Shown here: piece after piece, positions 13,185 to 38,832 of the stretch | Position numbering within the stretch: the first letter of the stretch is position 1 | How the letters are laid out: the number at the start of each line of letters is the position of its first letter | The notes under the pieces: generated by a model | Database searches by the model: none | What the model was told of the DNA's origin: nothing | What the model saw: only the letters and a program-made list of their open reading frames with translations | Assembly: GCA_016185545.1 (NCBI GenBank) | Contig: JACPNJ010000001.1 | Span: 22,565-86,564, forward strand | Source: Candidatus Yanofskybacteria bacterium | GTDB lineage: Bacteria > Patescibacteriota > Minisyncoccia > 2-02-FULL-40-12 > IGHO2-01-FULL-4-A | Direction of reading: 5' to 3' | DNA length: 64,000 bases | Position numbers and translations under genes: made by a program

Positions 13185-15377
13185 ATGGAACACAATCAAC
13201 ATAATCAAAAAGATCACAAAGAAAAAGGCGTTATCTATACCTGTCCGATGCATCCGGAAGTGCGGAGAGCCGAGTCTGGCAAATGCCCGGGGTGCGGCAT
13301 GGACCTTATTCCCAAAGAAGTTGACGGGGGCATAACGGAATATGATGTTTCGGAGTTGAGCCATAAGGAGCACGAAGCGGCAATGGCAAACTCGCAAATG
13401 GCCAAGAAAATGGAGCAAGATATGCGCCGTCGGTTTTGGATTTCGTTTTTGCTTTCAATACCGATTTTTCTTTATTCGCCGGTCGGCATTAATTTTTTTA
13501 AGCTTAATCTTCCGACTCCCATTTCCATCAATTGGCTGCTTTTGATCCTTACCACCCCGATTGTTTTCTGGACCGGCTCAATTTTTATTACGGGGACTTA
13601 TTATTCGCTCAAGGCGCGCAAGCTTAATATGTCGGTTCTTATTGCCACCGGTGTTTTGACGGCGTATCTTTTCAGTTTTTTGCTGACTATAGCGCAGCCC
13701 GGGTCGGAAACTTTCTATGAAGCGGCGGCTTTGCTGGTTACCTTCGTACTTTTCGGCCATTGGATGGAAATGAAATCTCGGCGCGGTACTTCCGACGCTT
13801 TGCGCGCGCTTTTTGACCTTGTTCCCCCACGGGCAAGAATTATCCGCAACGGAAAAGAAATTACAATTCCAAGCGCCGAAATCGTACACGGCGATATCGT
13901 GGTTTTGCGTCCAGGCGACAAAGTTCCGGTTGACGGTGACGTAACGGAAGGGCAGAGCGCAATTGACGAATCGCTGGTTACGGGCGAATCAATTCCTGTT
14001 GCTAAAAAAATAAGTGATAAAGTTATAGGCGGTTCGGTAAATCAAACGGGTACGATTAAATTTAAGGCAACGCAAGTTGGCTCGGAAACTGTGCTGGCTA
14101 ACATAATCAAGCTTGTTGAAACAGCGCAAAATTCTAAAGCGCCGGGTCAGCGCATTGCCGACAAAGCGGCCGGTTGGCTGGTGATAGTCGCAATTAGTTC
14201 GGGATTGGCGGCGTTTTTTGGGTGGTATTTCGGCGCCGGGAACGGGCTTATCGTGTCGCTTACTTTTGCTGTTTCAACAGTGGTAATTGCCTGTCCGGAC
14301 GCGCTTGGGCTTGCAACTCCCACCGCTGTTGCGGTCGGTACTGGCATTGGAGCCAAATACAACATTCTTATAAAAGATGCGGCAACGCTTGAAAACACTT
14401 CGCGTATAAATGCTGTTATTTTGGATAAAACCGGAACGCTAACCGAGGGAAAACCGAAAGTTACCGACGTTGTGGCATTCAACAACTTCAGCGAGCAGGA
14501 ATTGCTCAAATATGAAGCCAGTCTTGAGGCCGGTTCCAATCACCCGCTTGCTAAAGCTATTTTTGAAGAAACTAAAAGGCGCAATGCCTTACCGCTCAAG
14601 CCAGTGGAAAATTTTGAATCCGTCGCCGGTCGCGGGCTTAAGGCAAAAATTGGCGGCAAGATTGTTTTAGCCGGTAATGAAAAATTGCTCCGAGACGACG
14701 GCATTGCCACTGAGCCGGCAAAAGATATTCTTGACCGGCTTGCCGGCGAGGGGAAGACGTTGAGCTTATTGGCAATTGACGGAGTCTTTGCCGGGGTTAT
14801 TGCCGCTGCCGACCCGTCCAGAAATAATTCCAAAAAAACCGTTGCCGCTCTCAGGAAAATGAATATGGAAGTGGCGATGATTACCGGCGATCATACGAAA
14901 GTGGCGAAAGGCATCGGAAGAGAGTTGGGCATTGACCGCGTGTTTGCCGAGGTACTTCCCGAAGATAAAGCGAAATATGTTAAAAAATTGCAAAATGAAG
15001 GTAAATTCGTGGCAATGGTGGGGGACGGCATTAATGACGCGCCGGCACTGGCGCAAGCAGACATCGGCATCGCTATTGGCGCCGGTACCGATGTTGCTAT
15101 TGAAACCGGCAATATCGTGCTTATGAAATCTGACCCATACGATATTGTCGCGGCCATCAGGCTAAGCAAGGCCACGGTTACCAAAATGAAACAAAATCTT
15201 TTCTGGGCGGCAATATACAACCTGCTGGCTATTCCGGTTGCCGCCGGCGTTTTTTATAATTCTCTCGGTTGGTCTCTGCGGCCGGAAATTTCCGCGCTTC
15301 TGATGTCGGCCTCATCAATTATCGTTGCTACTAATGCCGTTTTATTAAAAAGAGTAGAGCCGAAATTAAAAGTGTAG
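13185..15377 (+). CDS. copA: copper-translocating P1B-type ATPase
   Basis: N-terminal 'CPMHPEV...CPGCGM' heavy-metal-binding domain, TM metal site 'CPD', 'DKTGTLTEG' phosphorylation site and 'GDGINDAPAL' hinge. Confidence 0.85.
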   Translation: MEHNQHNQKDHKEKGVIYTCPMHPEVRRAESGKCPGCGMDLIPKEVDGGITEYDVSELSHKEHEAAMANSQMAKKMEQDMRRRFWISFLLSIPIFLYSPVGINFFKLNLPTPISINWLLLILTTPIVFWTGSIFITGTYYSLKARKLNMSVLIATGVLTAYLFSFLLTIAQPGSETFYEAAALLVTFVLFGHWMEMKSRRGTSDALRALFDLVPPRARIIRNGKEITIPSAEIVHGDIVVLRPGDKVPVDGDVTEGQSAIDESLVTGESIPVAKKISDKVIGGSVNQTGTIKFKATQVGSETVLANIIKLVETAQNSKAPGQRIADKAAGWLVIVAISSGLAAFFGWYFGAGNGLIVSLTFAVSTVVIACPDALGLATPTAVAVGTGIGAKYNILIKDAATLENTSRINAVILDKTGTLTEGKPKVTDVVAFNNFSEQELLKYEASLEAGSNHPLAKAIFEETKRRNALPLKPVENFESVAGRGLKAKIGGKIVLAGNEKLLRDDGIATEPAKDILDRLAGEGKTLSLLAIDGVFAGVIAAADPSRNNSKKTVAALRKMNMEVAMITGDHTKVAKGIGRELGIDRVFAEVLPEDKAKYVKKLQNEGKFVAMVGDGINDAPALAQADIGIAIGAGTDVAIETGNIVLMKSDPYDIVAAIRLSKATVTKMKQNLFWAAIYNLLAIPVAAGVFYNSLGWSLRPEISALLMSASSIIVATNAVLLKRVEPKLKV

Positions 15378-20743: not shown

Positions 20744-21937
<1,194 letters not shown>

Positions 21938-26170: not shown

Positions 26171-26356
26171 TTATAGCAAACCCAAATATTATGTCAATTG
26201 TTTGTGGATAACCAAAATACTGAGAATAACTCGGTTTTTTTACTCCCAGGGGGTGGGGAATTAAAAGACAAAGTGTTAGATATTTTTGGAAATTTCTGGA
26301 GTTTCTATAAATAAGCTCTAGAAATGAGCCATAGCAATAACTGATGCCTTTCTTTA

Positions 26357-27160
26357 CTTAGAGGCTCAGCCTCTAAGTAACCAACAACTTACAATTTTTG
26401 CCGAGACACCTCGGCTTTTATTTTACTTTCGCCGCACAGGTTACTTAGAGGTTGAGCCTCTAAGTAACCTGTGCTATAAGTTTAATCTATGAGAAAACTT
26501 CAATTTGAAAATGGAGAGTTTTATCACATATACAACCGGGGCAACAATAAAAGGCCTATTTTTATGAAATCTTTTGATTTGCAGAGATTTTTGCAAAGTA
26601 TGATTGAATTCAATGTAGATGGACCAATCGGAAGTATTTATGCCGTTTCTTTCAACAAAGAATCACTTAGAGGCTCAGCCTCTAAGTCGAGACGACCAGT
26701 TGATATTGTTTGTTATTGCCTAAATCCTAACCATTTTCATCTTTTAGTTAGACAGTTGGAAAACGATGGAATTAAGAATTTTATGCATAAATTAGGAACT
26801 GGATATACAATGTATTTTAATAATAAACACGAATTGAACGGTGGACTTTTTCAGGGGAGATATAAAGCAATTCACATAGATACAAATGATTATCTGTTGT
26901 ATTTAAGCGCTTATATCAATTTAAATCCTGAAGCCCATCAACTTAGAGGCTCAGCCTCTAAGTTGTGCCAATCAAGTTGGAATGAATATATCGGTGATAA
27001 ATCTAGCAAGGGTAAATTGTGCAATACCAGGATTGTATTGTCGCAGTTTGAAACCGTGGAGGGTTATAAAAAATTTGCCGAAAAGGCGCTCGGGGTGATT
27101 ATAGAGAAAAAAGAGATGGAAGAATCCCTGAAGCTTTTACTTAGAGGCTGAGCCTCTAAG
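26357..27160. repeat. REP-like 21-bp palindrome CTTAGAGGCT(C/G)AGCCTCTAAG, five copies (26357-26377, 26444-26464, 26666-26686, 26942-26962, 27140-27160)
   Basis: Exact or 1-mismatch copies read from the sequence. Copies 3 and 4 lie in frame inside the RAYT ORF (LRGSASK). Copy 5 contains the ORF's TGA stop. Confidence 0.7.
26489..27151 (+). CDS. REP-associated tyrosine transposase (RAYT) / IS200-like HuH Y1 transposase
   Basis: 'GEFYHIYNRGNNKRPIF' N-terminal RAYT motif, HuH motif 'NHFHLLV' and catalytic tyrosine context 'GGLFQGRYKA'. Confidence 0.75.
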   Translation: MRKLQFENGEFYHIYNRGNNKRPIFMKSFDLQRFLQSMIEFNVDGPIGSIYAVSFNKESLRGSASKSRRPVDIVCYCLNPNHFHLLVRQLENDGIKNFMHKLGTGYTMYFNNKHELNGGLFQGRYKAIHIDTNDYLLYLSAYINLNPEAHQLRGSASKLCQSSWNEYIGDKSSKGKLCNTRIVLSQFETVEGYKKFAEKALGVIIEKKEMEESLKLLLRG

Positions 27161-28591: not shown

Positions 28592-29209
28592 TTGTTTTTT
28601 ATCGTTCCGTTTGGAATTTTTGTTATTTCGGTAGCCATTATCTGCTGGATTATCGGCTGTAAGTTTGTTTATCTTAAAAAATTGGCGCCTGAAGTGGTTG
28701 AAAATTCAGTTTCCAATGAAGAGAGTTTTTTTGCTGAATTTTTTCCCGGATTAGCTACGCACTTTAACAGTTCAAGGGTGCGCCAGTTCCGGGTTAATCT
28801 CCTGGCTGAGTTTGAGAAATTTTTGCGCAAATTGCGTCTCTTATCCCTTAAATTAGATGCAGTGACGAACCATCTTATACACCGGGTGCGTAAATCAGTA
28901 GTACATCATGAGGGTATGTTGAATGGCGAGGCGGCGGCGCAAGCGGAGCAGGAGATGGCGATAAATATTAAAAACGGAAACGGCGATGCGGACCCCAAGG
29001 AAGAAGAACAACGGCTGATAATTGAAATTGCCAGAAACCCAAAGAATGTCCAATTATATAAAAAACTTGGTAATATATATATGAAGATAGGGGAGTGGCA
29101 TGATGCGGCGGAATCTTTTAAAAAAGTTTTGGAGCTAGAGCCGGAAGATGAAACAACGCGAAACAAATTAACACGACTCTTAAAAAAATTGGAAAAATTG
29201 CCGACCTAG
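28592..29209 (+). CDS. membrane-anchored TPR-repeat protein (hypothetical)
   Basis: N-terminal TM helix. The C-terminus has a TPR-like motif 'LGNIYMKIGEWHDAAESFKKVLELEP'. Its stop overlaps the first tRNA. Confidence 0.4.
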   Translation: MFFIVPFGIFVISVAIICWIIGCKFVYLKKLAPEVVENSVSNEESFFAEFFPGLATHFNSSRVRQFRVNLLAEFEKFLRKLRLLSLKLDAVTNHLIHRVRKSVVHHEGMLNGEAAAQAEQEMAINIKNGNGDADPKEEEQRLIIEIARNPKNVQLYKKLGNIYMKIGEWHDAAESFKKVLELEPEDETTRNKLTRLLKKLEKLPT

Positions 29210-29272
29210 CTCAATGGCAGAGCAACACTTTTGTAAAGTGAAGGTTCCGAGTTCGAATCTCGGGGTCGGCTC
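29200..29272 (+). tRNA. tRNA-Thr (anticodon TGT)
   Basis: Manual cloverleaf: acceptor GCCGACC/GGTCGGC, D-arm GCTC-AATGGCA-GAGC, anticodon loop TTTGTAA, T-arm CCGAG-TTCGAAT-CTCGG. Confidence 0.7.
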
Positions 29273-29290
29273 ATCAGTCGGCTAAAATAG

Positions 29291-29374
29291 GGGGTGTACT
29301 CAAGCAGTCAACGAGGGCAGACTGTAAATCTGCTGGCCTTGTGCCTACGTAGGTGCAAATCCTACCGCCCCCAC
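29291..29374 (+). tRNA. tRNA-Tyr (anticodon GTA), long variable arm
   Basis: Acceptor GGGGGTG/CGCCCCC, anticodon stem-loop GCAGA-CTGTAAA-TCTGC and a long variable arm. The T-loop TGCAAAT is atypical (G at position 55). Confidence 0.7.
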
Positions 29375-29526
29375 AATTAGAGCAAGCCAATTGATTGGCT
29401 TGCGGGTAGGATTTGCAGGGCGCAGCTATGTTTCGCGAGTATTTGGCGAGCGAAACAGCGAGCAGCGGCCTGCGACCGCGAGGCCGGAAGGCCGAGCGAG
29501 TCGTAGGACAATCCTACCGCCCCCAC
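29375..29526. repeat. GC-rich ~130-bp insert after tRNA-Tyr ending in a direct repeat of the tRNA-Tyr T-arm/acceptor 3' end
   Basis: 29494-29526 'GTAGGACAATCCTACCGCCCCCA' repeats tRNA 3' end 'GTAGGTGCAAATCCTACCGCCCCCA'. The insert starts with a perfect hairpin GCAAGCCAAT-TG-ATTGGCTTGC and an inverted copy GGGTAGGATTTGCA. Local GC is far above the genome background. Confidence 0.4.
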
Positions 29527-29562
29527 CGAATAAAAATTAAAAAATAATTTTTAACTAAATAG

Positions 29563-29637
29563 GCCGAAGTAGCTCAGGGGCAGAGCAATTCCATGGTAAG
29601 GAATAGGCCGTGGGTTCGATTCCCACCTTCGGCTCCA
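29563..29637 (+). tRNA. tRNA-Thr (anticodon GGT)
   Basis: Acceptor GCCGAAG/CTTCGGC, D-arm GCTC-AGGGGCA-GAGC, anticodon stem-loop ATTCC-ATGGTAA-GGAAT, T-arm GTGGG-TTCGATT-CCCAC, CCA encoded. Confidence 0.8.
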
Positions 29638-29655
29638 AAACTAAATAAACGCAAT

Positions 29656-29814
29656 ATGTCACAAGATAATCTAATAAAATTGAAGTGTGGGCAGTGCAAG
29701 CGCGTCAATTATTTTTCTACCAAGAATAAGAAATTAGTCACTCGCGCGATCGAGTTGAAAAAGTTTTGTAAGTGGTGCAGGAAACACACGCCACACAAAG
29801 AAGCCAAAAAATAG
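29656..29814 (+). CDS. rpmG: 50S ribosomal protein L33
   Basis: 'KLKCGQCKRVNYFSTKNKK...LELKKFCKWCRKHTPHKE' is the L33 zinc-ribbon consensus. The ORF-track N-terminal extension overlaps tRNA-Thr and was trimmed to the ATG at 29656. Confidence 0.85.
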   Translation: MSQDNLIKLKCGQCKRVNYFSTKNKKLVTRAIELKKFCKWCRKHTPHKEAKK

Positions 29815-29974
29815 CCACTCGCCATAGTACCCCTTGGGAACTTCAAAAATCCCAGCGAGATTTTTTCATCTTTTGTGATTGCCGCCATTTGTCAAGACAC
29901 TCACTTCGTTCGGTCATTGACAAAACCATGCTGGCGGCAACCCCAGAAGTCCCAAAAGGCACTATGGCTCGCTC
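29815..29974. mobile_element. MITE-like repeat family C (about 160 bp, TIR CCATAGTGCCTTTTGGGACTTC / GAAGTTCCCAAAAGGTACTATGG), inverted copy
   Basis: The reverse complement is about 90% identical to 55418-55579. Located between rpmG and tRNA-Trp. Confidence 0.5.
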
Positions 29975-29997
29975 TTGTTACCAGTAGTAATTAGACT

Positions 29998-30071
29998 GGG
30001 AGTGTCGGTTAATGGCAAACCAACGGTCTCCAAAACCGTGACTGCAGGTTCGACTCCTGCCACTCCCGCCA
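29998..30071 (+). tRNA. tRNA-Trp (anticodon CCA)
   Basis: Acceptor GGGAGTG/CACTCCC, anticodon stem-loop ACGGT-CTCCAAA-ACCGT, T-arm GCAGG-TTCGACT-CCTGC, CCA encoded. Follows rpmG in the conserved rpmG-tRNA-Trp order. Confidence 0.8.
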
Positions 30072-30080
30072 AAACTAAAA

Positions 30081-30104
30081 CTCGGCTTGCGCCGAGTTTT
30101 TGAT
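30081..30104 (+). terminator. rho-independent terminator after tRNA-Trp
   Basis: CTCGGC-TTGC-GCCGAG followed by TTTTT. Confidence 0.45.
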
Positions 30105-30107
30105 TTT

Positions 30108-30146
30108 AGTTGGCTCTTGCCAAAAGTTTTTTTAGTTGCTAGCATG
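30108..30146 (+). promoter_or_regulatory. putative sigma70-type promoter module TTGCCA-N17-TAGCAT, copy 1
   Basis: 31-nt block TTGCCAAAAGTTTTTTTAGTTGCTAGCATGA is nearly identical to 31470-31500, including the spacer. It lies upstream of the 30189 ORF. Confidence 0.35.
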
Positions 30147-30188
30147 AGTGCGGATGTATTTTTACAAATAAGAGAAGAGGAATCGGGT

Positions 30189-30413
30189 ATGACAGAAAAG
30201 TGGGACAGACGTTTTTTGGCGCTTGCTGAATTTGTCGCCCAATGGAGCAAAGATCCATCAACCAAAACCGGGGCCGTTATCGTTGATTCTAATAATAGAC
30301 TAGTATCCGTCGGATATAACGGTTTTCCGCGGGGCGTAAATGATTCGCCGGAGCGGTTAGAAAATCGCGAAATCAAAAACTGTTTTTCAACCTTGCGGGA
30401 GCAGGGTTTTTAA
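30189..30413 (+). pseudogene. dCMP/cytidine deaminase N-terminal fragment (truncated before the HAE / PCxxC zinc motifs)
   Basis: 'WDRRFLALAEFVAQWSKDPSTKTGAVIVDSNNRLVSVGYNGFPRGVND' matches the comEB/dCMP deaminase N-terminus. The ORF stops about 75 aa in, before the catalytic residues. Confidence 0.5.
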
Positions 30414-30460
30414 TTTAGTATGGGGTTGGTAATGTTATTTAAAAATTTAAGGATAAATCC

Positions 30461-31444
30461 ATGCCCGAAGTTAATCTGGAACAAATAAAAAAAATTGCCG
30501 AATTCTTAAAAAACCTACCAGAGAATGGCGGTGGCCTAAACTTTTACAGTTTTCAAAAGGATGGCAAACAAATTGTTGCTTCCGATATGTACCCGCCGCT
30601 TAATCATCCGCAAGCGATTAACTTTTTCTTTTTTACTTGTATGCATCAATACGGGTTTTGGTATGGTGATAAATATGGTTATATTGAACCGCTTTTCGGA
30701 ACGATAAACGGCAAAAAGACCAAAGGCTCAGATTTGTTGTGGAAAGCGGCAATGCGAGCGTTTAATCAAGATGCCGAATGTTTTGAACCGAAAAAACTGG
30801 CTGTTGTTAGCCCGCATGATTTAGCCCGCACAATTTTAACTGATGACAACGGCACTATTCCGTTTCCTGATTTTGAAACTAGATTTCAACTGACGCGGGC
30901 TTACGGACTATGGTTTCAAGAAGCAAGTTCTAGAAATTCCCAAGAGTTAGTTCGGTTCAGCAATTGCAGTAAAAACTCATTACGCAAGTTTCTTGAAATA
31001 ATACGAGAAGTGCCGGGTTATAATAAAGATAAGCTTCAAAAGAAAAACCTGCTTCTTGCCATGGTTTTGGCCAATCGGCCGGAAAAGTTTTTGGAAGTGA
31101 AAGATCCATGGAACTGGCAGCCGATTGTTGATTACCACCTCATGAGATTGGCTTTGCGGCAAGGCCTGGTTGGCCTTGATGATCAGGAAAAGAAACAAAA
31201 CGAAGCAAGAAAATGGACGGATGCGGTGATCGAATCTTCAATTCGTGAAGCGGTTTTTGAGGCTATGGGGATTATTATAAAAGAATCGGGTAAATCCATG
31301 TCTTTTGTGGACGAGAAATTCTGGAATGGCCGACGCTATTGTCCGGAAACGGAAATACCCGATTGCCAAAGATGCTTGTTTAATTCTGTTTGCAAGAAGC
31401 GGATTGAACTTTTCCAGCCGATCTTTAGAACTACGGCGTATTGA
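30461..31444 (+). CDS. Qng1/DUF2419-like protein (candidate queuosine-salvage hydrolase) - tentative
   Basis: About 330 aa. The block 'AINFFFFTCMHQYGFWYG...GSDLLWKAAMRAF' recalls the 'VNWVFLVDLLNFSFWS...GYWALCAAVNRAL' region of Qng1/C9orf64 as I remember it; this is not an alignment. Cys-rich C-terminus. Confidence 0.3.
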   Translation: MPEVNLEQIKKIAEFLKNLPENGGGLNFYSFQKDGKQIVASDMYPPLNHPQAINFFFFTCMHQYGFWYGDKYGYIEPLFGTINGKKTKGSDLLWKAAMRAFNQDAECFEPKKLAVVSPHDLARTILTDDNGTIPFPDFETRFQLTRAYGLWFQEASSRNSQELVRFSNCSKNSLRKFLEIIREVPGYNKDKLQKKNLLLAMVLANRPEKFLEVKDPWNWQPIVDYHLMRLALRQGLVGLDDQEKKQNEARKWTDAVIESSIREAVFEAMGIIIKESGKSMSFVDEKFWNGRRYCPETEIPDCQRCLFNSVCKKRIELFQPIFRTTAY

Positions 31445-31469
31445 TCCCCGACATTGGAGGTTGCGGTGT

Positions 31470-31500
31470 GTTGCCAAAATTTTTTAACTTGCTAGCATGA
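31470..31500 (+). promoter_or_regulatory. putative sigma70-type promoter module TTGCCA-N17-TAGCAT, copy 2
   Basis: TTGCCAAAATTTTTTAACTTGCTAGCATGA, followed by the AAAGGAG RBS and ATG of the 31539 gene. Confidence 0.35.
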
Positions 31501-31538
31501 ATTAAGGTGGTACATTAATAATAGAAAAGGAGCAGCTA

Positions 31539-33032
31539 ATGGCAAAATATGGCGAATGGCCAGATAATTTGGAAACGAGATTAAAAAAACACTGGAAGGA
31601 CGCGAAGAATAATCGTGATGAATTTAAAAAATTAGTCTTGGAAGATAAGGTTTTAATGAAGCAAAAAAGCTGGAATGCTTGCCGGCTGAAAGCAGGATTT
31701 CTCAGTTTTTTTAAAAATGCCAAACCATCACAAAAGAAATACCCATTTTCTCAACTTGAAGAAACCAAAAAACAAGAACTTCTTAAACTTCTTGCCGATG
31801 GCAATGTGGGATGGACAGAAGTTTTTCAGAAATTTCCCGGATTTTCTGAATTACAATTCAAGAATTTTGCCAAAAACCAAAGCACAGGCGTAAATAAAAA
31901 GAAAAAAGAAATTTCTCCGGAAGAATTCAAAAAAAATGTTGGCAAGTATACTGATCGGGCGCTTAAGTTTTTGCGTGAATTCGGACCGGCAAATGCCGAT
32001 AAAATTTCTGACGAAATAGAGATAAGCGCGCAAATGGTTTTTCGCGTAGTTGAGGAACTGGCCCGCCGCGGTTATCAGGTAGTCAAAGATCCCGACGGCA
32101 GATTTCGTCTTTCTACTTCTGAAGCCAAAACGGTCGCGACAGAGCACCACTGGCGTCCGACCACTAGAATTTTAATTTGGAGTGGCGCGGAACTGGGCGG
32201 TATCGGACAACAAGCCGATCTTCTTAAGACTGTCTATCATACTATTGTCCCGGAAGAAAAACCGGATTTTGTAATAGCGCTCGGCAATGTTATAGTTGGC
32301 AATTTGTCAGCGGTCAAGCGAAACGAAACATTTTTAGAATTAGAACAAGAGTACGAAGAAGACTATAAGAAAAAGAAAAAAATTTCCGAGTTGCTTTATC
32401 AAGCTCAAATTGATTATATCTTAAATGTTATCGGTGATGAGGCTATGACTTGTTTGCCCAGCCACAGATGCAATACCTATTTCATCAGCGGTCTAAAAGA
32501 ACAATCGTTTATTAAGCAAGGGTTTGAAGACCCGCTTGAAAATATTTGCGATCAGAGACGAGAATTAAAAGGCGCCAAACATCAAGACTGGTTTTATTTT
32601 GGCAGAAATATGCACATGTTCAGGATTATTAATACCGGTAAGCCAGTCGGGGTGCTCGCACTTACCTCAAAGAAAAATCCTTTTCGCGGTGCTTATACCC
32701 GCGGTTACAGACCACGCAAAACATCAACTTCTATTGCTGGTTGGCTTATTAATACCTTGCGTACCAAGGGAGTCAATGACTACCCGCGGGTAATTATTTG
32801 GACAGACGGTGTTGGCGTTTATACCGCGCTAGGTGATAGCGAAGCGTCTACATTTATAAGCTTACCCAAACTTGCTGTTACCGATCCGACTGAACTTGAA
32901 CTGGATACGCCGCCTAATTTGGGTTGTGTAATCGTTGACCTCACGTTTAATGAACATGGTGAACTCAAGCAGAATGGGATAGAGTGGAAATTCAGAAATT
33001 TAGCGCCCTACATAAACGAGCGAGGGTATTAA
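31539..33032 (+). CDS. hypothetical protein with wHTH-like segment and degenerate metallophosphoesterase-like motifs
   Basis: AAAGGAG RBS. 'ISDEIEISAQMVFRVVEELARRGYQVV' is winged-helix-like. 'ILIWSGAELGG...(25 aa)...DFVIALGNVIVGN' has the spacing of MPE motifs I and II, but the catalytic residues are substituted. Confidence 0.35.
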   Translation: MAKYGEWPDNLETRLKKHWKDAKNNRDEFKKLVLEDKVLMKQKSWNACRLKAGFLSFFKNAKPSQKKYPFSQLEETKKQELLKLLADGNVGWTEVFQKFPGFSELQFKNFAKNQSTGVNKKKKEISPEEFKKNVGKYTDRALKFLREFGPANADKISDEIEISAQMVFRVVEELARRGYQVVKDPDGRFRLSTSEAKTVATEHHWRPTTRILIWSGAELGGIGQQADLLKTVYHTIVPEEKPDFVIALGNVIVGNLSAVKRNETFLELEQEYEEDYKKKKKISELLYQAQIDYILNVIGDEAMTCLPSHRCNTYFISGLKEQSFIKQGFEDPLENICDQRRELKGAKHQDWFYFGRNMHMFRIINTGKPVGVLALTSKKNPFRGAYTRGYRPRKTSTSIAGWLINTLRTKGVNDYPRVIIWTDGVGVYTALGDSEASTFISLPKLAVTDPTELELDTPPNLGCVIVDLTFNEHGELKQNGIEWKFRNLAPYINERGY

Positions 33033-33033
33033 C

Positions 33034-34149
33034 GTGAAAAAAATAAATGGTAATCATGAGCTTGCTTCAAAAATACTGGATACGCTAAATAAGAGATCGG
33101 CAAAGCTTGGTGAACTGGAAAGAGCATTTAATCAAAGTAAAAACGCCATAGTATTAGCTATTGATTTTCTTAAACAAAAGGGCCACAAAATTGTATTTAA
33201 ACCGGTAAGCGGTATGTATTTTTTGGAACATGCCACAAGGACCAAGTTTGAAGCGATTCCAAAAGAAATATTATATTCCGGACCAACCATTAGAAAATTA
33301 GGGATGAGCGAAACCCATTTCGGTGGCCGGCATTCTCAGCCGCATTTTATTGTTGCGCTTTGGGTCGCGATCAAAAGCGGCGAATTCGGTAAAATAGACC
33401 TCATTACGCACTATGGTGATGTTTTTAACGGTTTAAAGCATGCCGACTATAGCCGTGGCGGCAATATTTTGAATGGTGTAGACACACAGATGCGCCTTGG
33501 AATTATTGCAATGTCTTGTTTTGAAGGAATGCCGGTTTATATAAGGCCGGGCGATCATGATATGTGGCAGCATACAACCGCCGGTGTTAATATGGTTGCC
33601 AATCTGGTGGAAAAACTTAACTTGATGAGAAAAGCAGAAAACAAAGAACAGAACTTCAATTATGTAAGTTCAGACAATAACGACCAAATAGAATTCAACA
33701 ATTTCATATTTGAGTTTAAACACATTATGTCGGCGCAGTCCCGAGGGTTAACAACCAAAGCCCAATATATGTTTGAAGATAGAATGGGAGATTTTGTTAA
33801 GTCATTAAGAGGCAATGGCGTGTCAAAAAACACGGCTCAGCCGCATCACATAGGATTTGGTAATTGGCACAGAGAGATTAGTTTTTTTCATGGCGGGACA
33901 GCCATGGATCTTTATCCTGGTTTTCAGGAATCAACTGATTGGGAAAAAAACATGGGCATTGTTCACAAATTTGGCGCCAAAGTAGTAACCCTTGGTAAAG
34001 ATAAAAATGGAAATATTTTCCGATACGATGTTCGCTATATTGACTTTACCGATATAATTGAAAAAATTACCGGCCACGATTTGGATGACGCGCTGCTGAA
34101 TCTTGCCCTCCGAGCATTTAATAAATGGAAGAAAAAGTTGGGGGTATAA
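33034..34149 (+). CDS. hypothetical wHTH + calcineurin-like metallophosphoesterase-like protein
   Basis: 1-nt spacing from the upstream ORF. The N-terminus is wHTH-like. Candidate MPE motifs: 'ETHFGG' (I), 'HYGDVFNG' (II), 'PGDHDMW' (III), 'GNWHRE', 'FHGG'. Confidence 0.35.
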   Translation: MKKINGNHELASKILDTLNKRSAKLGELERAFNQSKNAIVLAIDFLKQKGHKIVFKPVSGMYFLEHATRTKFEAIPKEILYSGPTIRKLGMSETHFGGRHSQPHFIVALWVAIKSGEFGKIDLITHYGDVFNGLKHADYSRGGNILNGVDTQMRLGIIAMSCFEGMPVYIRPGDHDMWQHTTAGVNMVANLVEKLNLMRKAENKEQNFNYVSSDNNDQIEFNNFIFEFKHIMSAQSRGLTTKAQYMFEDRMGDFVKSLRGNGVSKNTAQPHHIGFGNWHREISFFHGGTAMDLYPGFQESTDWEKNMGIVHKFGAKVVTLGKDKNGNIFRYDVRYIDFTDIIEKITGHDLDDALLNLALRAFNKWKKKLGV

Positions 34150-34219
34150 ATAATTATTTTAAAAACAAAAGCCGAGATTAACTCGGTTTTTTATATTATT
34201 TCAAAAAAATAGAATAAAA

Positions 34220-34471
34220 TTATAATACTTCGATTTTAAGTTTGCGAGGTTCGTTTGGCGGGATTTTTTTAACGGTAGAACGAAGATCAGCCCGGTTAGT
34301 TTCAATTCCTTTCATTAGAAATTCAACATCTTCAATTTTGTAAACGCGGTAGTTATTCACGGGGTTGCGGTGGGCAACAAGAGCGCCTTTTTTGTCCCAG
34401 TTACGGACCGTCAAAGGCGTTACGCCGAATATTTTAGCAACCTCATTTACGGTTAGATATTTTTTAGGCAC
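34220..34471 (-). CDS. excisionase/MerR-type helix-turn-helix DNA-binding protein
   Basis: 'LTVNEVAKIFGVTPLTVRNWDKKG' is a classic HTH_17 / Xis-family motif. Confidence 0.6.
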   Translation of the reverse strand: MPKKYLTVNEVAKIFGVTPLTVRNWDKKGALVAHRNPVNNYRVYKIEDVEFLMKGIETNRADLRSTVKKIPPNEPRKLKIEVL

Positions 34472-34865
34472 GATTTAGTTGTCAGTTATCAGCAAAAATT
34501 TAGCTGCAAACTGCAAACTTAGATTTCTTTATTAACCTCCCTCACCATATTAAAGCTTATTGAACTTTAATATTAACACCATATCTTTTACTAAAAAATC
34601 AATCAATGTGGATAACTTGCTTGTGTAATCGGCAGTCGCAAGCCGCCAATCGTTAATAACGCGGAGCCCCGACCTTGTCGGGGCTCCGCAGAACGTGCCC
34701 GCATTCCAAAAATTCGGAAAGCGGACTCTCATATCATATTGCACCCAGAACTAAAACCAAAAATAATGCGAATACTATAAAATATGTCAACTTGACTATA
34801 AAATTGTATTTACTAAAATTTTATCTAGCTTTGATAGCTTTGTGGGGTTGACCGTTGGGTAAATT

Positions 34866-37388
34866 GTGCAATCTATCAAACCGACGAAGTCTATGGAAAT
34901 AAATTTAGCGAACAGCGAGGAGCGGGGATATCAAAATTTTACTGAAGAAAATTTTGATAATCACGAAACTTTGGTTGAAGAAGAATTGCCAGTGCGTCAA
35001 TATGCCGAGGATGTATCAACCCTGCCCGCGCAGGCAGGCGAAACTAACCCTATTTTTAGGAAAATGATACGGTGGCTGGTTTATGCCGCGGCGTTTTTGA
35101 CGCCATTATGGTTTTTGCCGTGGACGGCGGATATCACGGCATTCAACAAGCAGACGCTTTTGATTGCAGCGGCCGGGATCGGCTTAGTGATATGGCTGGT
35201 TGATGTTATCAAAAGCGGAGCCGTAAGATATAAACCAAGCAATTTATATTTGCCTGTATTTGGATTAGTTGCGGCCGGAATAATTTCGGTGATTTTTTCT
35301 GTCAGCCGGACCGCCAGTCTTTTCGGTGCCGCCGGCGACAGAAGCTGGTCTTTAATAAGCTTGATGGCGTTGGCGGTATTATTCATGCTTGCCGTCAATG
35401 TCATAGAGGACCAAGGTCGGTTCTTAAGGAAAATAATTATTGTCTCGTTAGCACTGGCATTTCTTTACGGGGCGCTTCAGATATTTGGCTTATATTTGTT
35501 CAAGGGTGAGCTATTTGCGAGCCGATCATTCAATAGCGTCGGCTCTCTTAATTCTCTTGGTATTTTAGCGGCGTTAGCGCTGGCATTTTTTACCGTGTCT
35601 GGTTCTGTGAGAACCGTGAACCAAGAATCACAGCTTGGCAGCCTGACTGCCAAATGGCAAGATTGGGTCATGGATGGAGCCAGATATGTCGGTTTGGCTT
35701 TAGCATTATTTTTTGTAATCCTTGTTAATTGGTGGCCGATTTGGACCGTGGCTTTCATTTCACTTCTAGCTTTTGTTGCTTTTGCCTCTGCTAGCAATAC
35801 CGCGCTCTTAAAAAGGGGCAGGATGAAATTATTTGCCATACCGATGGCGGTAATAGTATTAGGAATATTTTTGATGCTTATCAACTTCAACTGGGTTTCC
35901 ATAAAATCAAAATTGCCAGTAGAAATAGCGCCGGCTCAAAAAATTTCTTGGGCTATAGCTGTGGATTCATTGAAGATGCGGCCCATGGGACACGGCATGG
36001 AAAATTTTGGCATTGCCTACGACAAATTCAAGCCAGCCAGTATCGCCAATACTGTTTTTTACCAAATTAGATTTATGAATGCTGCATCCGAAATTGTAAA
36101 TATGGCCGTTGAGGGCGGCATATTAATGATTTTGGCGTTTTTGGCTCTTTTATGGTTTTACGGAAAGTCACTGGTTGCTTCGGTGAAAAACAATTTTAAT
36201 GGCATTGCCGGTTCAAGCGCTAACTGGGCAGTAAGTTTTGGATTACTGGCGGTTTTCTTTTTGTATCCTCTTAATCTCCCGCTTCTTACATTGTTTTTTA
36301 TGTTTTTGGTTTTGACGTCACTGTCCAGTTTAGAATCTGCCGAAGAAAAAATAATAAATCTGGAAAGCGATGCCAAGTATTCATTTGTCGGTTCGGTGGT
36401 ATTCATAGTGGGGTTGGTGGCGGTTTCAGTCGCCGGTTATTTTACCGTGAATAATTACTTGGCCAACGTTTATCTGGCGAAAGCCGCGCGATCGTCGGAT
36501 CGGAACAAAGCCATAGAATATTATGTTGCCAGCGCTAACACAAACGGCAAGGATGCCAGAGTTTATAGATTGCTGTCCCAAACAGTTCTGGCGGAATTAT
36601 CGGAAAACCTCAAAATCGGACCAAAGAAAGATGAAACTCGGGAAAACTACAATGCTAGAATACAAAATCAAATCGCTTCGGCGGTCAGTATTACTATTCG
36701 AGCTACCGATGCCGATCCTGCCGATTCGCAGAATTGGGCCAATCGTGGTTTGATTTATCATAATTTGATTACTTTGGTCAGCGGAGCTGATCAGGCGGCA
36801 ATAAATACTTACAACGAATCACTGGCCCGCAATCCGAACGACCCGGCGACATATTTAAGAATAGGCAATATTTACTTTACTTTAGCCGATAATCTGCAGA
36901 AATCATCTGGAACAAGGAACCAAATTGAAGATAATCTGAATAAAGCCGAAGATAATTTTAAGAAAGCTATTGCGCTTTATAGTAATTACGGCCAGGCGCT
37001 GTATAATTTGGCTGCCGTTTATGATCGGCAGGGAAAAGTACCCAACGCGATTAAACAATTTGAAAAATTGCAAGCCAACAATTTACGCAATCCGAGCTTT
37101 GCCTTTCAGTTAGGTTTGCTTTATTATCGCAATAACCAGAAAGATAATGCTCTTCGCGCTTGGCAACAGGCAGTATTGCTTTTCCCGAATTACTCCAACG
37201 CGCGCTGGTACTTGTCTTTAATTTACGAGGAAAGGGGCGAATTAGAACAAGCGCTTGGACAAGTAAGAGAAATAGAGAAATTTAATCACGATAACAAGTT
37301 GGTCCAGCAGCGGCTTACACAGTTGGAAGCAGGCAAAAGGACAATTCCGCCTGAAAAACTGCTTGATAAAGAACCGTTGAATCAATAG
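34866..37388 (+). CDS. O-antigen ligase-like (Wzy_C) polytopic membrane protein with C-terminal TPR repeats; start uncertain (GTG at 34866 or ATG at 34893)
   Basis: More than 10 TM helices with a large periplasmic loop. The C-terminal third has TPR motifs ('ALYNLAAVYDRQGKVPNAIKQFEKL', 'RWYLSLIYEERGELEQA'). Confidence 0.55.
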   Translation: MQSIKPTKSMEINLANSEERGYQNFTEENFDNHETLVEEELPVRQYAEDVSTLPAQAGETNPIFRKMIRWLVYAAAFLTPLWFLPWTADITAFNKQTLLIAAAGIGLVIWLVDVIKSGAVRYKPSNLYLPVFGLVAAGIISVIFSVSRTASLFGAAGDRSWSLISLMALAVLFMLAVNVIEDQGRFLRKIIIVSLALAFLYGALQIFGLYLFKGELFASRSFNSVGSLNSLGILAALALAFFTVSGSVRTVNQESQLGSLTAKWQDWVMDGARYVGLALALFFVILVNWWPIWTVAFISLLAFVAFASASNTALLKRGRMKLFAIPMAVIVLGIFLMLINFNWVSIKSKLPVEIAPAQKISWAIAVDSLKMRPMGHGMENFGIAYDKFKPASIANTVFYQIRFMNAASEIVNMAVEGGILMILAFLALLWFYGKSLVASVKNNFNGIAGSSANWAVSFGLLAVFFLYPLNLPLLTLFFMFLVLTSLSSLESAEEKIINLESDAKYSFVGSVVFIVGLVAVSVAGYFTVNNYLANVYLAKAARSSDRNKAIEYYVASANTNGKDARVYRLLSQTVLAELSENLKIGPKKDETRENYNARIQNQIASAVSITIRATDADPADSQNWANRGLIYHNLITLVSGADQAAINTYNESLARNPNDPATYLRIGNIYFTLADNLQKSSGTRNQIEDNLNKAEDNFKKAIALYSNYGQALYNLAAVYDRQGKVPNAIKQFEKLQANNLRNPSFAFQLGLLYYRNNQKDNALRAWQQAVLLFPNYSNARWYLSLIYEERGELEQALGQVREIEKFNHDNKLVQQRLTQLEAGKRTIPPEKLLDKEPLNQ

Positions 37389-38505: not shown

Positions 38506-38832
38506 TTGTTAAATCTTTTAATTAATACTGCCCACGCAGTTGAATTGCCGACATTTGATCAACCCGATTTACCGGCTTTTATCAATTCGGTTTACAGTTT
38601 TGCTCTTATGGTTGTCGGTATTGTTGTTTTTGTCCGGTTATTATACGCTGGTTTCCGATTGCTGACTGCCGCCGGTAACGCGAGTAAAATATCAGACGCC
38701 AAAGAGAAAATTAAAAACGCAATTATCGGTACGATTTTACTTTTTGCCGCTTATTTGATACTGTACGTAATTAATCCCGACTTGGTTAAAAATACGCTTG
38801 ATTTCAGTTTATTCCGCAACTTGACGCAGTAA
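38506..38832 (+). CDS. small two-TM membrane protein (pilin/VirB2-like?)
   Basis: Leader-like N-terminus and two hydrophobic helices separated by 'AGNASKISDAKEK'. Only a shape resemblance to TrbC/VirB2-type pilins. Confidence 0.3.
   Translation: MLNLLINTAHAVELPTFDQPDLPAFINSVYSFALMVVGIVVFVRLLYAGFRLLTAAGNASKISDAKEKIKNAIIGTILLFAAYLILYVINPDLVKNTLDFSLFRNLTQ

What the first reader, a model, noticed from the sequence alone, without database searches (positions are those of the whole stretch)
30078..34500. Island replacing the conserved rpmG-tRNA-Trp-secE-nusG neighbourhood: deaminase remnant, Qng1-like gene, wHTH/phosphoesterase pair, excisionase-like HTH
After the conserved tRNA-Thr/Tyr/Thr-rpmG-tRNA-Trp block, the expected secE-nusG-rplK-rplA are missing from this window; rplJ-rplL appear only at 39.1 kb. 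In their place lie a truncated dCMP-deaminase N-terminal fragment (30189-30413), a DUF2419/Qng1-like ORF (tentative; it would complement tgt at 20744 for queuine salvage), two adjacent hypothetical proteins (31539-33032, 33034-34149) and a minus-strand Xis/MerR-type HTH gene (34220-34471). A very stable GC hairpin follows at 34663-34691 (GCGGAGCCCCGAC-CTTG-TCGGGGCTCCGC). No integrase is visible.
Basis: partly seen in the sequence, partly recalled or inferred. Interest (0 to 1): 0.55.

Follow-up and report, generated by a model that had tools for sequence, protein, structure and literature searches.

The report
Conserved CPR gene block, not island
The stretch after tRNA-Trp is not a recently inserted island but the normal, inherited gene order of this group of tiny-genome (CPR/Parcubacteria) bacteria, and its core is an uncharacterised, tightly coupled pair of DNA-binding phosphoesterase-fold proteins, one apparently active and one degenerate.

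Summary
The island reading fails. The region has no integrase, no repeat of the tRNA-Trp 3' end and no compositional deviation. The order rpmG-tRNA-Trp-[wHTH-phosphoesterase module]-...-MltG-rplJ-rplL recurs in Yanofskybacteria, Spechtbacteria, Terrybacteria and other Parcubacteria, down to 40% RpsB identity. None of these relatives has secE-nusG-rplK-rplA after tRNA-Trp.

ORF3 and ORF4 are 1 nt apart and are fused into one protein in other genomes. Each has a winged helix followed by a metallophosphoesterase fold, closest to PolD DP1, Mre11/SbcD and the polymerase B subunits. ORF4 keeps the metal-binding motifs; ORF3 has lost them. I infer a DNA-binding nuclease or phosphodiesterase heterodimer.

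- **Qng1-like gene:** it belongs to a widespread CPR subfamily of DUF2419 that carries an extra invariant four-cysteine motif.
- **Deaminase piece:** it is a true remnant that lacks both zinc motifs.
- **HTH gene:** it is a resident BldC-like small MerR protein, not an excisionase.

The slot between tRNA-Trp and the HTH gene does vary among close relatives. The variation includes split, fused or giant versions of the module, different deaminases and a HAD hydrolase. Interest is modest.

The parts
29998..30071 (+). tRNA-Trp (CCA), the conserved upstream anchor of the block
   Evidence: ARAGORN and Rfam tRNA at 62.7 bits. The same rpmG-tRNA-Trp anchor precedes the module in L064, L067, L068, L071 and L072.
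30077..30100 (+). Terminator-like hairpin plus T-run directly after tRNA-Trp
   Evidence: Consensus scan found 10 pairs followed by a T-run; inverted repeat I23. It is a consensus match only.
30117..30147 (+). Promoter-like element (TTGCCA-17-TGcTAGCAT), copy 1 of a 25-nt direct repeat
   Evidence: Repeat D7, 22 of 25 positions identical to 31476-31500. Both copies were called promoter-like with an extended -10.
30189..30413 (+). Remnant of a dCMP-deaminase gene: the N-terminal third only, with no HAE or PCxxC zinc motifs
   Evidence: PF00383 covers model positions 2-50 of 102; phrog_174 5e-23. The ORF ends in a terminator-like hairpin at 30389-30408, and only 47 nt separate it from the next gene. 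It shows no similarity to the deaminases at the same locus in L071/L072.
30461..31444 (+). Qng1/DUF2419-family gene (CPR subfamily) with an invariant C-X7-C-X2-C-X5-C motif and a C-terminal Tyr
   Evidence: PF10343 23.5 bits. There are 221 homologues; every organism name the sources give is a CPR/Patescibacteria lineage or a generic 'bacterium', most carry no name, about half are flagged PF10343, and some are named 'queuosine salvage family protein'. K194, C294, C302, C305, C311 and Y327 are invariant and D224 is at least 90% conserved. The only PDB match to the family profile is human QNG1, 7ugk, E 1.2e-3. The orthologue sits at the same position in L067 (59%), L071 (77%) and L072 (80%).
31471..31500 (+). 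Promoter-like element, copy 2 of the repeat, upstream of ORF3
31539..33032 (+). ORF3: helical N-terminal domain (1-123), winged helix (about 135-190), then a degenerate metallophosphoesterase fold without metal ligands
33034..34149 (+). ORF4: winged helix (1-65) plus a metallophosphoesterase domain with the metal-binding motifs retained; start codon 1 nt after the ORF3 stop
34167..34191 (.). Terminator-like hairpin between the convergent ORF4 and HTH genes
   Evidence: Consensus scan found it on both strands.
34220..34471 (-). 83-aa HTH-only MerR-superfamily protein (BldC-like or excisionase-like fold), a resident gene
   Evidence: MerR 40.1, MerR_1 37.1 and HTH_17 30.3 bits. BldC 31 bits and the excisionase domain 21.2 bits are both below cut-off; PADLOC mad1 1.8e-14. 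It is conserved at the same position in L005 (77%), L010 (62%), L061/L062 (53%), L064 (62%) and L071 (86%).
34603..34618 (.). Conserved 16-nt motif TCAATGTGGATAACTT containing a perfect DnaA-box sequence
   Evidence: It is identical in the window, L071 and L005 in the same intergenic region. DnaA boxes are not enriched in the window overall, 20 found against 15 expected.
34661..34689 (.). 13-bp GC-rich hairpin (loop CTT), followed by a conserved GAACGTGYCC linker and a second hairpin
   Evidence: (local fold z -5.1). L071 has the homologous hairpin at 14528-14556, with 3 of 13 pairs changed on both sides and all still paired. There is no U-run and no Rfam match.

Best explanation
Positions 30078-34500 are a vertically inherited part of the chromosome of a Candidatus Yanofskybacteria-type Parcubacterium, not an inserted island.

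**Gene order.** In this clade the tRNA-Thr/Tyr/Thr-rpmG-tRNA-Trp block is followed by a lineage-typical module of two winged-helix/metallophosphoesterase (wHTH-MPE) units instead of secE-nusG-rplK-rplA. Further downstream come (AAA_2)/PCMT or HTH+TPR, then MltG, rplJ and rplL.

**The module here.** It is split into two translationally coupled genes. ORF4 retains the dinuclear-metal motifs and is the catalytic subunit. ORF3 is a paralogue that has lost them and carries an extra helical N-terminal domain. I infer that the two proteins form a heterodimer that binds DNA through its two winged helices. The fused forms elsewhere would then be pseudo-heterodimers. I further infer that it cleaves phosphodiester bonds in nucleic acid, working like an Mre11/SbcD/DP1-type nuclease with an inactivated partner.

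**The other genes.**
- The upstream gene is the CPR version of the Qng1/DUF2419 nucleotide N-glycosylase.
- The deaminase piece is a decayed gene.
- The minus-strand gene is a resident small MerR-type DNA-binding protein.

**Variability.** The slot between tRNA-Trp and that HTH gene is evolutionarily plastic. Close relatives carry a very divergent fused version or a giant version of the module and different nucleotide-metabolism genes.

**Shown versus inferred.** Shown: the synteny, folds, motifs, fusion and coupling. Inferred: heterodimer formation, DNA as the substrate, and the cellular role.
For: **Synteny.**
- L064 has the same order as the window, from prfA to the hypothetical gene after rplL, minus the deaminase piece and the Qng1-like gene.
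- L067 (RpsB 40%) has tRNA-Trp-Qng1-like (59%)-ORF3 (47%, full length)-ORF4 (46%)-x-PCMT-MltG-rplJ-rplL-tRNA-Val-...-mraZ-rsmH.
- L061/L062 have ORF3-ORF4-HTH-PaaX_M-TPR-MltG-rplJ-rplL.
- L066 has ORF3-ORF4-PCMT-MltG.
- Terrybacteria L068/L069 have rpmG-tRNA-Trp-739-aa fused module-x-AAA_2-PCMT-MltG.
- L073 has the fused module-AAA_2-PCMT-x-MltG-rplJ-rplL.
- Spechtbacteria L014 has rpmG-tRNA-Trp-x-IMPDH-677-aa fused module-x-MltG.

**No island signatures.**
- No tRNA-Trp 3' repeat.
- GC 0.402 against 0.421 for the window (z -1.2) and a tetranucleotide distance z of -0.21.
- No integrase.
- The same arrangement appears in three independent read-set assemblies.

**The module.**
- The ORF3 stop and ORF4 start are 0-2 nt apart in all five genomes.
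- P0035 is a natural fusion, and there are many fused representatives.
- Remote members pass PF00149 with a preceding wHTH.
- Remote single-unit relatives lie beside DNA polymerase A/UDG and RecA in a phage-like contig.

**Background.** A large Parcubacteria group (OD1-L1) is reported to lack rpL1 altogether (PMC5220378).
Against: - I could not show where secE, nusG and rplK are in this genome, because only 64 kb of a 132-kb contig is visible.
- Neither ORF3 nor ORF4 reaches a Pfam Metallophos hit itself; their assignment rests on predicted folds (pLDDT about 75), motif alignment and transitive profile hits.
- No Rad50/SbcC or DP2 partner is nearby.
- The closest relatives (L005, L071, L072) do not carry the ORF3/ORF4 pair at this site. 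They carry very divergent alternatives, which shows real turnover in the slot.
Confidence: 0.8

Rival explanations
1. A mobile genomic island integrated at tRNA-Trp displaced secE-nusG-rplK-rplA, and the minus-strand HTH is its excisionase.
For: - It sits next to a tRNA gene.
- The small HTH hits HTH_17 and phage excisionase PHROGs at about 1e-6.
- A gene remnant lies at the tRNA-proximal edge.
- Gene content between tRNA-Trp and the HTH gene differs among close relatives.
Against: - There is no integrase or recombinase in the region or at the same locus in any relative.
- There is no att-like repeat.
- Composition is native.
- ORF3-ORF4 keeps the same neighbours down to 40% RpsB identity and in other candidate phyla.
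- The HTH gene scores below the excisionase cut-off (21.2 against 28.8) and is itself part of the conserved downstream flank.
- No relative has secE-nusG at this site.
Confidence: 0.04
2. The slot between tRNA-Trp and the HTH gene is a conflict or defence hotspot. ORF3/ORF4 and the alternative large proteins in relatives would be interchangeable anti-phage or anti-plasmid nucleases kept variable by diversifying selection and in-situ replacement.
For: - Closely related genomes (RpsB 82-88%) carry very different occupants. These are a 680-aa fused form in L071/L072, and a 1049-aa protein plus a 445-aa membrane protein in L005. Their flanks are 77-98% identical.
- The ORF3 N-terminal domain is shared with the otherwise unrelated-looking 1049-aa protein.
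- Different deaminases occur at the locus.
- The HTH gene hits PADLOC mad1 (1.8e-14), and the deaminase piece hits the deaminase domain of anti-phage dCTP deaminase models.
- Remote relatives occur in phage-like contigs.
Against: - No occupant matches any PADLOC model beyond generic wHTH or deaminase domains.
- The two-MPE module is present at this chromosomal position across several candidate phyla, which resembles a core gene more than a patchy defence gene.
- ORF3/ORF4 identities (46-60%) track those of the housekeeping neighbours.
- The deaminase hits score far below the family cut-offs (22.8 against 400 bits).
Confidence: 0.1
3. ORF3/ORF4 are primarily transcription factors. They would be BirA/NiaR/NrtR-style bifunctional regulators whose MPE domains sense or hydrolyse a small nucleotide ligand, and they would control neighbouring genes such as those for nucleotide salvage or MltG and cell-wall functions.
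For: - Each unit begins with an HTH_11/TrmB/MarR-type winged helix.
- IMG names relatives 'biotin operon repressor/predicted phosphodiesterase'.
- Nucleotide-metabolism genes sit at the locus in relatives. These are the Qng1-like gene, cytidine and dCMP deaminases, a HAD hydrolase, PRT, OMP decarboxylase and IMPDH.
Against: - The MPE fold is closest to nuclease-type and polymerase-subunit MPEs rather than to small-molecule phosphodiesterases such as Icc/CpdA or ApaH, though the margins are small.
- Phage-borne relatives sit in replication and recombination modules.
- No operator-like repeats were identified.
Confidence: 0.2
4. The unusual order is an artefact: a chimeric MAG contig joins unrelated segments.
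For: The source is a metagenome-assembled genome.
Against: - Contigs assembled independently from three sequencing runs carry the stretch from ORF3 into the minus-strand HTH gene. One of them also covers the deaminase piece and the Qng1-like gene, and two run on through the TPR gene and MltG.
- The same junctions occur in independent genomes from other studies.
Confidence: 0.01

Closest known systems
Mre11/SbcD nucleases and the PolD small subunit DP1 (nuclease-type calcineurin-like metallophosphoesterases)
   Different: - It has an N-terminal winged helix instead of a capping domain or OB fold.
- Motif I is E-x-H and motif III is G-D-H-D in this subfamily.
- No Rad50/SbcC or DP2 partner is nearby.
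- Its partner is a degenerate paralogue.
- No activity has been tested.
B subunits of eukaryotic DNA polymerases alpha, delta and epsilon (inactivated MPE domains)
   Different: There is no OB fold and no polymerase catalytic subunit in the neighbourhood. The resemblance may only reflect shared loss of the active site on a common fold. Sequence identity is 10-12%.
Qng1 / DUF2419 (queuosine-5'-monophosphate N-glycosylase; PMC9881137)
   Same: - A borderline PF10343 hit, and human QNG1 is the only PDB match.
- Similar length.
- An invariant Lys and a near-invariant Asp about 30 residues apart, and a C-terminal Tyr. These are compatible with K199, D231 and Y323 of S. thermophilus Qng1.
- tgt is present in the window.
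   Different: It has an invariant C-X7-C-X2-C-X5-C motif that resembles the Fe-S cluster loop of EndoIII/MutY (from my own knowledge). The Qng1 paper does not mention iron-sulfur at all. Sequence similarity is confined to the N-terminal half. The substrate is untested.
BldC, excisionase (Xis) and MerR N-terminal HTH proteins
   Same: It is an 83-aa protein consisting only of a MerR-type HTH (MerR 40 bits, HTH_17 30 bits).
   Different: It scores below the cut-offs for the BldC and excisionase models. It has no integrase partner and no effector domain. It is conserved as a chromosomal neighbour of the TPR-MltG genes.
tRNA-linked genomic islands and integrative elements
   Same: It is adjacent to a tRNA gene, has variable content among relatives, and has a gene remnant at the edge.
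   Different: There is no integrase, no att repeat and no foreign composition, and the core genes are conserved across candidate phyla.

Membership tests
tRNA-integrated genomic island / integrative element | Integrase or other recombinase within or at the edge of the segment | tested here: not met
   Pfam, NCBIfam and PHROG scans of all five ORFs found none. The same locus in L005, L010, L061, L064, L067, L071 and L072 has none either.
tRNA-integrated genomic island / integrative element | Direct repeat of the tRNA 3' end (attL/attR) bounding the segment | tested here: not met
   The 28-nt and 17-nt tRNA-Trp 3' patterns, with up to 3 mismatches, match only the tRNA itself plus one unrelated site at 22631. 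The repeat search found none.
tRNA-integrated genomic island / integrative element | Composition distinct from the host genome | tested here: not met
   GC z is -1.2 and the tetranucleotide distance z is -0.21 relative to 4.4-kb windows of the same sequence.
tRNA-integrated genomic island / integrative element | Absent from related genomes, which show the uninterrupted ancestral site | tested here: not met
   No relative has secE-nusG after tRNA-Trp. The wHTH-MPE module follows tRNA-Trp in Yanofskybacteria, Terrybacteria and Spechtbacteria loci.
Calcineurin-like metallophosphoesterase superfamily (PF00149) - ORF4 | Ordered motifs D-x-H, G-D, G-N-H-[DE], H and G-x-x-H that bind two metals | tested here: met
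   SE93TH95, GD129, GD174H175D, H230 and GNWH279 are invariant or nearly so in 19 sequences. They align column for column with SDTH, GD, GNHD, H and GNWH of members that pass PF00149. D-to-E and N-to-D substitutions are noted.
Calcineurin-like metallophosphoesterase superfamily (PF00149) - ORF4 | Pfam model hit at or above the gathering score | tested here: not met
   ORF4 itself has no Metallophos hit. Relatives found with the ORF4 profile at E 1e-24 to 1e-34 do pass; P0051 scores 57.8 bits and P0055 44.4 bits.
Calcineurin-like metallophosphoesterase superfamily (PF00149) - ORF4 | Four-layer alpha/beta/beta/alpha MPE fold | tested here: met
Calcineurin-like metallophosphoesterase superfamily - ORF3 | Metal-binding motifs | tested here: not met
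Mre11-Rad50 / SbcCD | Adjacent or co-occurring Rad50/SbcC ABC ATPase partner | tested here: not met
   No such gene flanks the pair in the window or in L061-L068. The rest of the genome was not examined.
Archaeal PolD (DP1/DP2) | OB fold in the small subunit and a DP2 catalytic subunit | tested here: not met
   The ORF4 model is wHTH plus MPE only. None of the window ORFs scanned against Pfam looks like DP2; several large ORFs were not scanned. A genome-wide absence of DP2 was not tested.
Qng1 / DUF2419 | PF10343 hit at or above the gathering score | tested here: not met
   23.5 bits against a cut-off of 25, matching model positions 7-140 of 285 only. About half of the 120 listed homologues carry a precomputed PF10343 hit, and some are named 'queuosine salvage family protein'.
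Qng1 / DUF2419 | Catalytic Lys and Asp of the HhH motif and the C-terminal Tyr carboxylate (K199, D231, Y323 in StQng1; PMC9881137) | tested here: inconclusive
   K194 and the C-terminal Y327 are invariant, and D224 is at least 90% conserved. The spacing is compatible, but no alignment to StQng1 across this region could be obtained.
Qng1 / DUF2419 | Hydrolysis of queuosine-5'-monophosphate to queuine | not testable with these tools
   This needs a biochemical assay.
Excisionase (TIGR01764 / Xis) | Model score at or above the cut-off and a partner integrase | tested here: not met
   21.2 bits against a cut-off of 28.8. There is no integrase in any of the six loci that carry the orthologue.
MerR-family regulators | N-terminal MerR HTH | tested here: met
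   PF00376 scores 40.1 bits against a cut-off of 28.2, and PF13411 scores 37.1 against 21.6.
MerR-family regulators | C-terminal coiled-coil and effector-binding domain | tested here: not met
   The protein is 83 aa. The HTH occupies residues 5-52 and the rest is a short basic tail.
dCMP / cytidine deaminase (PF00383) | Zinc-binding H[AC]E and PCxxC motifs | tested here: not met
   The ORF stops after model position 50 of 102, before both motifs. I therefore treat it as a remnant.

The most novel reading that the evidence does not exclude
The two-unit wHTH-metallophosphoesterase module would be a Parcubacteria-wide core DNA-metabolism enzyme. In this reading it is a DP1/Mre11-like nuclease with a built-in inactivated partner, analogous to the polymerase B subunits. 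It would supply an end-processing, proofreading or DNA-scavenging activity that these reduced genomes otherwise lack. It has held the chromosomal position after rpmG-tRNA-Trp since the ancestor of the clade, while being repeatedly replaced in situ by distant homologues.
Probability: 0.15. Interest if true: 0.6.

Novelty: new variant of a known kind. Interest (0 to 1): 0.3.

Why it matters
For the scan, this is mostly a corrective. A departure from the textbook rpmG-secE-nusG-rplKAJL order in a CPR genome is lineage-typical, and tRNA adjacency plus a small HTH gene does not make an island.

What remains of interest is an uncharacterised but widely conserved CPR protein family. It consists of winged-helix plus phosphoesterase units in tandem, one of which is degenerate in this lineage. 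Its fold affinities are to DNA nucleases and polymerase accessory subunits, in organisms whose DNA repair and nucleotide-supply routes are poorly understood.

The same locus also shows in-situ replacement by very divergent versions of the module. It carries a Qng1-like family with a possible Fe-S cluster motif.

Tried and rejected
- **att search:** I searched for repeats of the tRNA-Trp 3' end with up to 3 mismatches and ran a general repeat search. Nothing bounds the segment.
- **25-nt direct repeat:** the copies at 30123-30147 and 31476-31500 flank the deaminase piece plus the Qng1-like gene. Both copies are promoter-like, and the Qng1-like gene is at the same site in L067, L071 and L072. 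I read this as a duplicated promoter, not an insertion scar.
- **Rfam:** gathering thresholds on the whole window and E-value thresholds on 29300-35000 gave only tRNAs, and nothing for the hairpin.
- **More copies of the hairpin:** two pattern scans of metagenome contigs. The strict one found nothing. The loose one found 120 loci, none with the long stem or a CPR-like context.
- **PADLOC and PHROGs:** scans of the ORFs and of the alternative occupants in relatives gave only generic wHTH, deaminase or HTH hits.
- **L005/L010 giant proteins:** profile-profile comparison with the ORF3/ORF4 family gave no significant match beyond the shared N-terminal domain. The MPE-like motifs I see in them by eye are unconfirmed.
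- **oriC idea:** a perfect, conserved DnaA box lies at 34607-34615. However, boxes are not enriched (20 against 15 expected) and GC skew does not switch, so I rejected it.
- **afdb50 fold search:** the library was unavailable.
- **PDB sequence search with the ORF4 profile:** only weak wHTH hits.
- **Literature:** searches for a described CPR wHTH-metallophosphoesterase family or an Fe-S Qng1 found nothing.

Full report
**1. What is in the sequence**

The window comes from a metagenome-assembled Candidatus Yanofskybacteria genome, a member of the CPR/Parcubacteria. The ORF3 and Qng1-like proteins are identical to NCBI entries HYX20_00300 and HYX20_00295 on a 132-kb contig, and the nearest RpsB relatives are Yanofskybacteria MAGs.

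- The tRNA-Thr/Tyr/Thr-rpmG-tRNA-Trp block lies at 29200-30071.
- The deaminase fragment at 30189-30413 covers only positions 2-50 of the 102-position PF00383 model, so both zinc motifs are missing.
- The DUF2419-like ORF at 30461-31444 scores 23.5 bits on PF10343, against a cut-off of 25.
- Two ORFs at 31539-33032 and 33034-34149 are separated by one nucleotide.
- The 83-aa MerR/HTH_17 gene is on the minus strand at 34220-34471.
- The GC hairpin has the quoted sequence but lies at 34661-34689.
- tgt, rplJ and rplL are confirmed.

NusG, RplK and RplA were not found in the window. tblastn gave nothing, while an RplL positive control worked at E 6e-31. Pfam scans of the finding's ORFs, their flanks and 20 further window ORFs gave no such hit.

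**2. Is it an island?**

No. I fetched related loci in two ways: through RpsB and through exact look-ups of homologues of ORF3, ORF4 and the Qng1-like protein.
- L064 (RpsB 58%) has the window's order from prfA to the gene after rplL. It lacks only the deaminase piece and the Qng1-like gene, and tRNA-Trp is followed directly by the ORF3 homologue.
- L067 (RpsB only 40%) has tRNA-Thr/Tyr/Thr-rpmG-tRNA-Trp-Qng1-like (59% identical)-ORF3 (47%, full length)-ORF4 (46%)-x-PCMT-MltG-rplJ-rplL-tRNA-Val, with mraZ-rsmH beyond.
- L061/L062 and L066 keep ORF3-ORF4 upstream of MltG, with rplJ-rplL beyond it in L061/L062.
- In Candidatus Terrybacteria, a 739-aa fused homologue follows rpmG-tRNA-Trp and precedes AAA_2-PCMT-MltG.
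- Another Parcubacterium (L073) has the fused form followed by AAA_2-PCMT-x-MltG-rplJ-rplL.
- A Spechtbacteria locus has rpmG-tRNA-Trp-x-IMPDH-677-aa fused form-x-MltG.

None of these loci has secE-nusG-rplK-rplA after tRNA-Trp. The other island signatures are also absent.
- There is no repeat of the tRNA-Trp 3' end.
- There is no integrase.
- GC content and tetranucleotide usage are typical for the window (z -1.2 and -0.2).
- Independent assemblies from three sequencing runs carry the ORF3-ORF4-HTH stretch, with varying amounts of the flanks.

A published observation fits this background. A large Parcubacteria group (OD1-L1) lacks rpL1 altogether (PMC5220378). Whether this genome belongs to that group is my inference.

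**3. The ORF3/ORF4 pair**

The pair is conserved with a 0-2-nt gap between stop and start in five genomes. It occurs as a single fused protein in others, such as P0035 at 784 aa. A profile of ORF4 homologues finds 284 cluster representatives, many of them 650-880 aa with the ORF4-like part in the C-terminal half. Remote members pass Pfam Metallophos, up to 57.8 bits, and each MPE is preceded by a winged helix.

AlphaFold models were good enough for fold searches, at pLDDT 75 and 74.

ORF4 keeps the family's metal-binding motifs (SETH95, GD129, GDH175D, H230, GNWH279). These align with the canonical SDTH, GD, GNHD, H and GNWH motifs of relatives. ORF3 has none of them. In some remote fused members the first unit is still canonical; in P0049, for example, Metallophos matches residues 182-266. 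The degenerate state therefore looks derived.

Single-unit relatives occur in phage-like contigs. One lies next to DNA polymerase A/UDG and RecA, and another carries a LAGLIDADG insertion. Viral fold matches are phage MPEs annotated as SbcD or 'DNA polymerase II small subunit'.

From this I infer a DNA-binding heterodimer with one active and one scaffold subunit that acts as a nuclease or phosphodiesterase on nucleic acid. The folds, motifs, fusion and gene coupling are shown. Complex formation, substrate and role are inferred. A regulator with an enzymatic sensor domain, in the style of BirA or NiaR, remains a serious alternative.

**4. The other genes**

*Qng1-like protein.* It has 221 homologues. 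Every organism name that the sources give is a CPR/Patescibacteria lineage or a generic 'bacterium', and most entries carry no name. About half are flagged PF10343, and some are named queuosine salvage proteins. The family profile matches only human QNG1 in the PDB, at E 1.2e-3.

The Qng1 paper names K199, D231 and the C-terminal Y323 as the catalytic hallmarks (PMC9881137). The CPR family has an invariant K194, a near-invariant D224 and an invariant C-terminal Y327. This is compatible but not proven. The family also has an invariant C-X7-C-X2-C-X5-C motif. It resembles the Fe-S cluster loop of EndoIII/MutY (my own knowledge), and the Qng1 paper does not mention iron-sulfur at all. With tgt in the window, a role in queuine salvage is plausible but untested.

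*Deaminase piece.* It is a remnant that ends in a terminator-like hairpin. It is unrelated to the deaminases that occupy the locus in L071 and L072.

*HTH gene.* It is conserved at this position in L005, L010, L061/L062, L064 and L071 at 53-86% identity. It never has an integrase beside it and scores below the excisionase and BldC cut-offs. It is best described as a resident HTH-only MerR-type protein.

**5. The slot is variable**

The closest relatives do not carry the split pair between tRNA-Trp and the HTH gene.
- L072 (RpsB 88% via the same MAG's L004; RpmG 98%) has a 272-aa YunG+deaminase protein, the Qng1-like gene (80%), a 680-aa fused MPE-wHTH-MPE protein and a cytidine-deaminase-like gene.
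- L071 (RpsB 82%) has a HAD hydrolase, the Qng1-like gene (77%), a 684-aa fused protein, a cytidine deaminase and the HTH gene at 86%.
- L005 (86%) and L010 (59%) have a 1049- or 1148-aa protein plus a membrane protein of about 445 aa.

The 680-aa type is orthologous to the Spechtbacteria protein (E 3e-118). It is only distantly related to ORF3/ORF4. In the giant proteins, L005's shares only the ORF3 N-terminal domain with the pair.

The position is therefore ancestral while its occupant turns over, which looks like in-situ displacement by distant homologues. No occupant matches a known defence system.

**6. Intergenic features**

The hairpin at 34661-34689 is unique in the window, has no U-run and matches no Rfam family. 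L071 has a homologous hairpin in the same intergenic region. Three of its 13 pairs are changed on both sides and all still pair. It is followed by a conserved GAACGTGYCC linker and a second hairpin. With only two sequences this is suggestive, not proof; 64 of 500 shuffles score as high. Pattern scans of metagenome contigs found no further copies.

A 16-nt motif containing a perfect DnaA box (34603-34618) is identical in three genomes. It is not part of a box cluster or a GC-skew switch.

**7. Verdict**

The gene-level annotations are largely right, and the island interpretation is not supported. What is there is the lineage-typical neighbourhood of a Parcubacterium. It contains an uncharacterised, conserved two-unit wHTH-metallophosphoesterase module, which is a new variant within a known superfamily. 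Interest is modest.

Noticed in passing
window 29358-29374 and 29510-29526: The last 17 nt of tRNA-Tyr are duplicated exactly 152 nt downstream, inside the tRNA-Tyr/tRNA-Thr spacer (D19). Relatives carry insertions in this same spacer. L071 has an 87-aa GIY-YIG gene, L064 has a 385-nt spacer with a 58-aa ORF, and L005 has a 257-aa ORF with tRNA-Tyr and tRNA-Thr(ggt) not detected. This looks like the scar of a small mobile insertion.
   Followed up: partly
window 26354-26380, 26434-26474, 26939-26965: Three copies of a palindrome built on ACTTAGAGG(C/T)T(C/G)AGCCTCTAAGT lie around and inside the IS200-like Y1_Tnp gene at 26489-27151. This could be a REP/RAYT-like arrangement. Homologues of the gene occur in L004, L005 and L064.
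   Followed up: no
window 34603-34618: The 16-nt motif TCAATGTGGATAACTT contains a perfect DnaA box and is identical in the HTH-TPR intergenic region of the window, L071 and L005. It is not part of a box cluster or a skew switch.
   Followed up: partly
window 30461-31444 (protein residues 294-311): The CPR Qng1-like family has an invariant C-X7-C-X2-C-X5-C motif. It resembles the Fe-S cluster loop of EndoIII/MutY-type glycosylases, and the Qng1 structure paper does not mention iron-sulfur at all.
   Followed up: partly
L005 11090-15707; L010 4781-9735: An alternative cassette occupies the same slot. It consists of a 1049- or 1148-aa protein with no Pfam hit plus a membrane protein of about 445 aa. 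The L005 protein shares the ORF3 N-terminal domain (E 1e-49). By eye it shows MPE-like motifs such as DPH, GNH and GDKH, but profile comparison does not confirm them.
   Followed up: partly
L075 768-7796; L074 7001-14290: Remote single-unit wHTH-MPE relatives sit in phage-like contigs. One is flanked by a UDG+DNA_pol_A gene and RecA. Another carries a LAGLIDADG insertion and lies near a phage integrase and YopX.
   Followed up: no
window 38506-38832: A 108-aa T4SS-pilin-like gene (PF18895, 1.2e-10; Mbov_0395-family pilin-like conjugal transfer protein, 29 bits, below cut-off) lies between MltG and rplJ. It gave no tblastn hit in any related locus compared.
   Followed up: no
window 29815-29997: The rpmG/tRNA-Trp spacer contains nested inverted repeats (I7 at 29821-29839/29950-29968 and I11 at 29870-29887/29932-29949). 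It also has an 86%-identical 57-nt match in inverted orientation upstream of rpsB in L006.
   Followed up: no
L061 17521-18171; L067 12339-13109: In relatives, an AbiEii toxin gene or a DpnI restriction gene follows rplL. In the window, a 680-aa hypothetical gene on the minus strand follows it.
   Followed up: no
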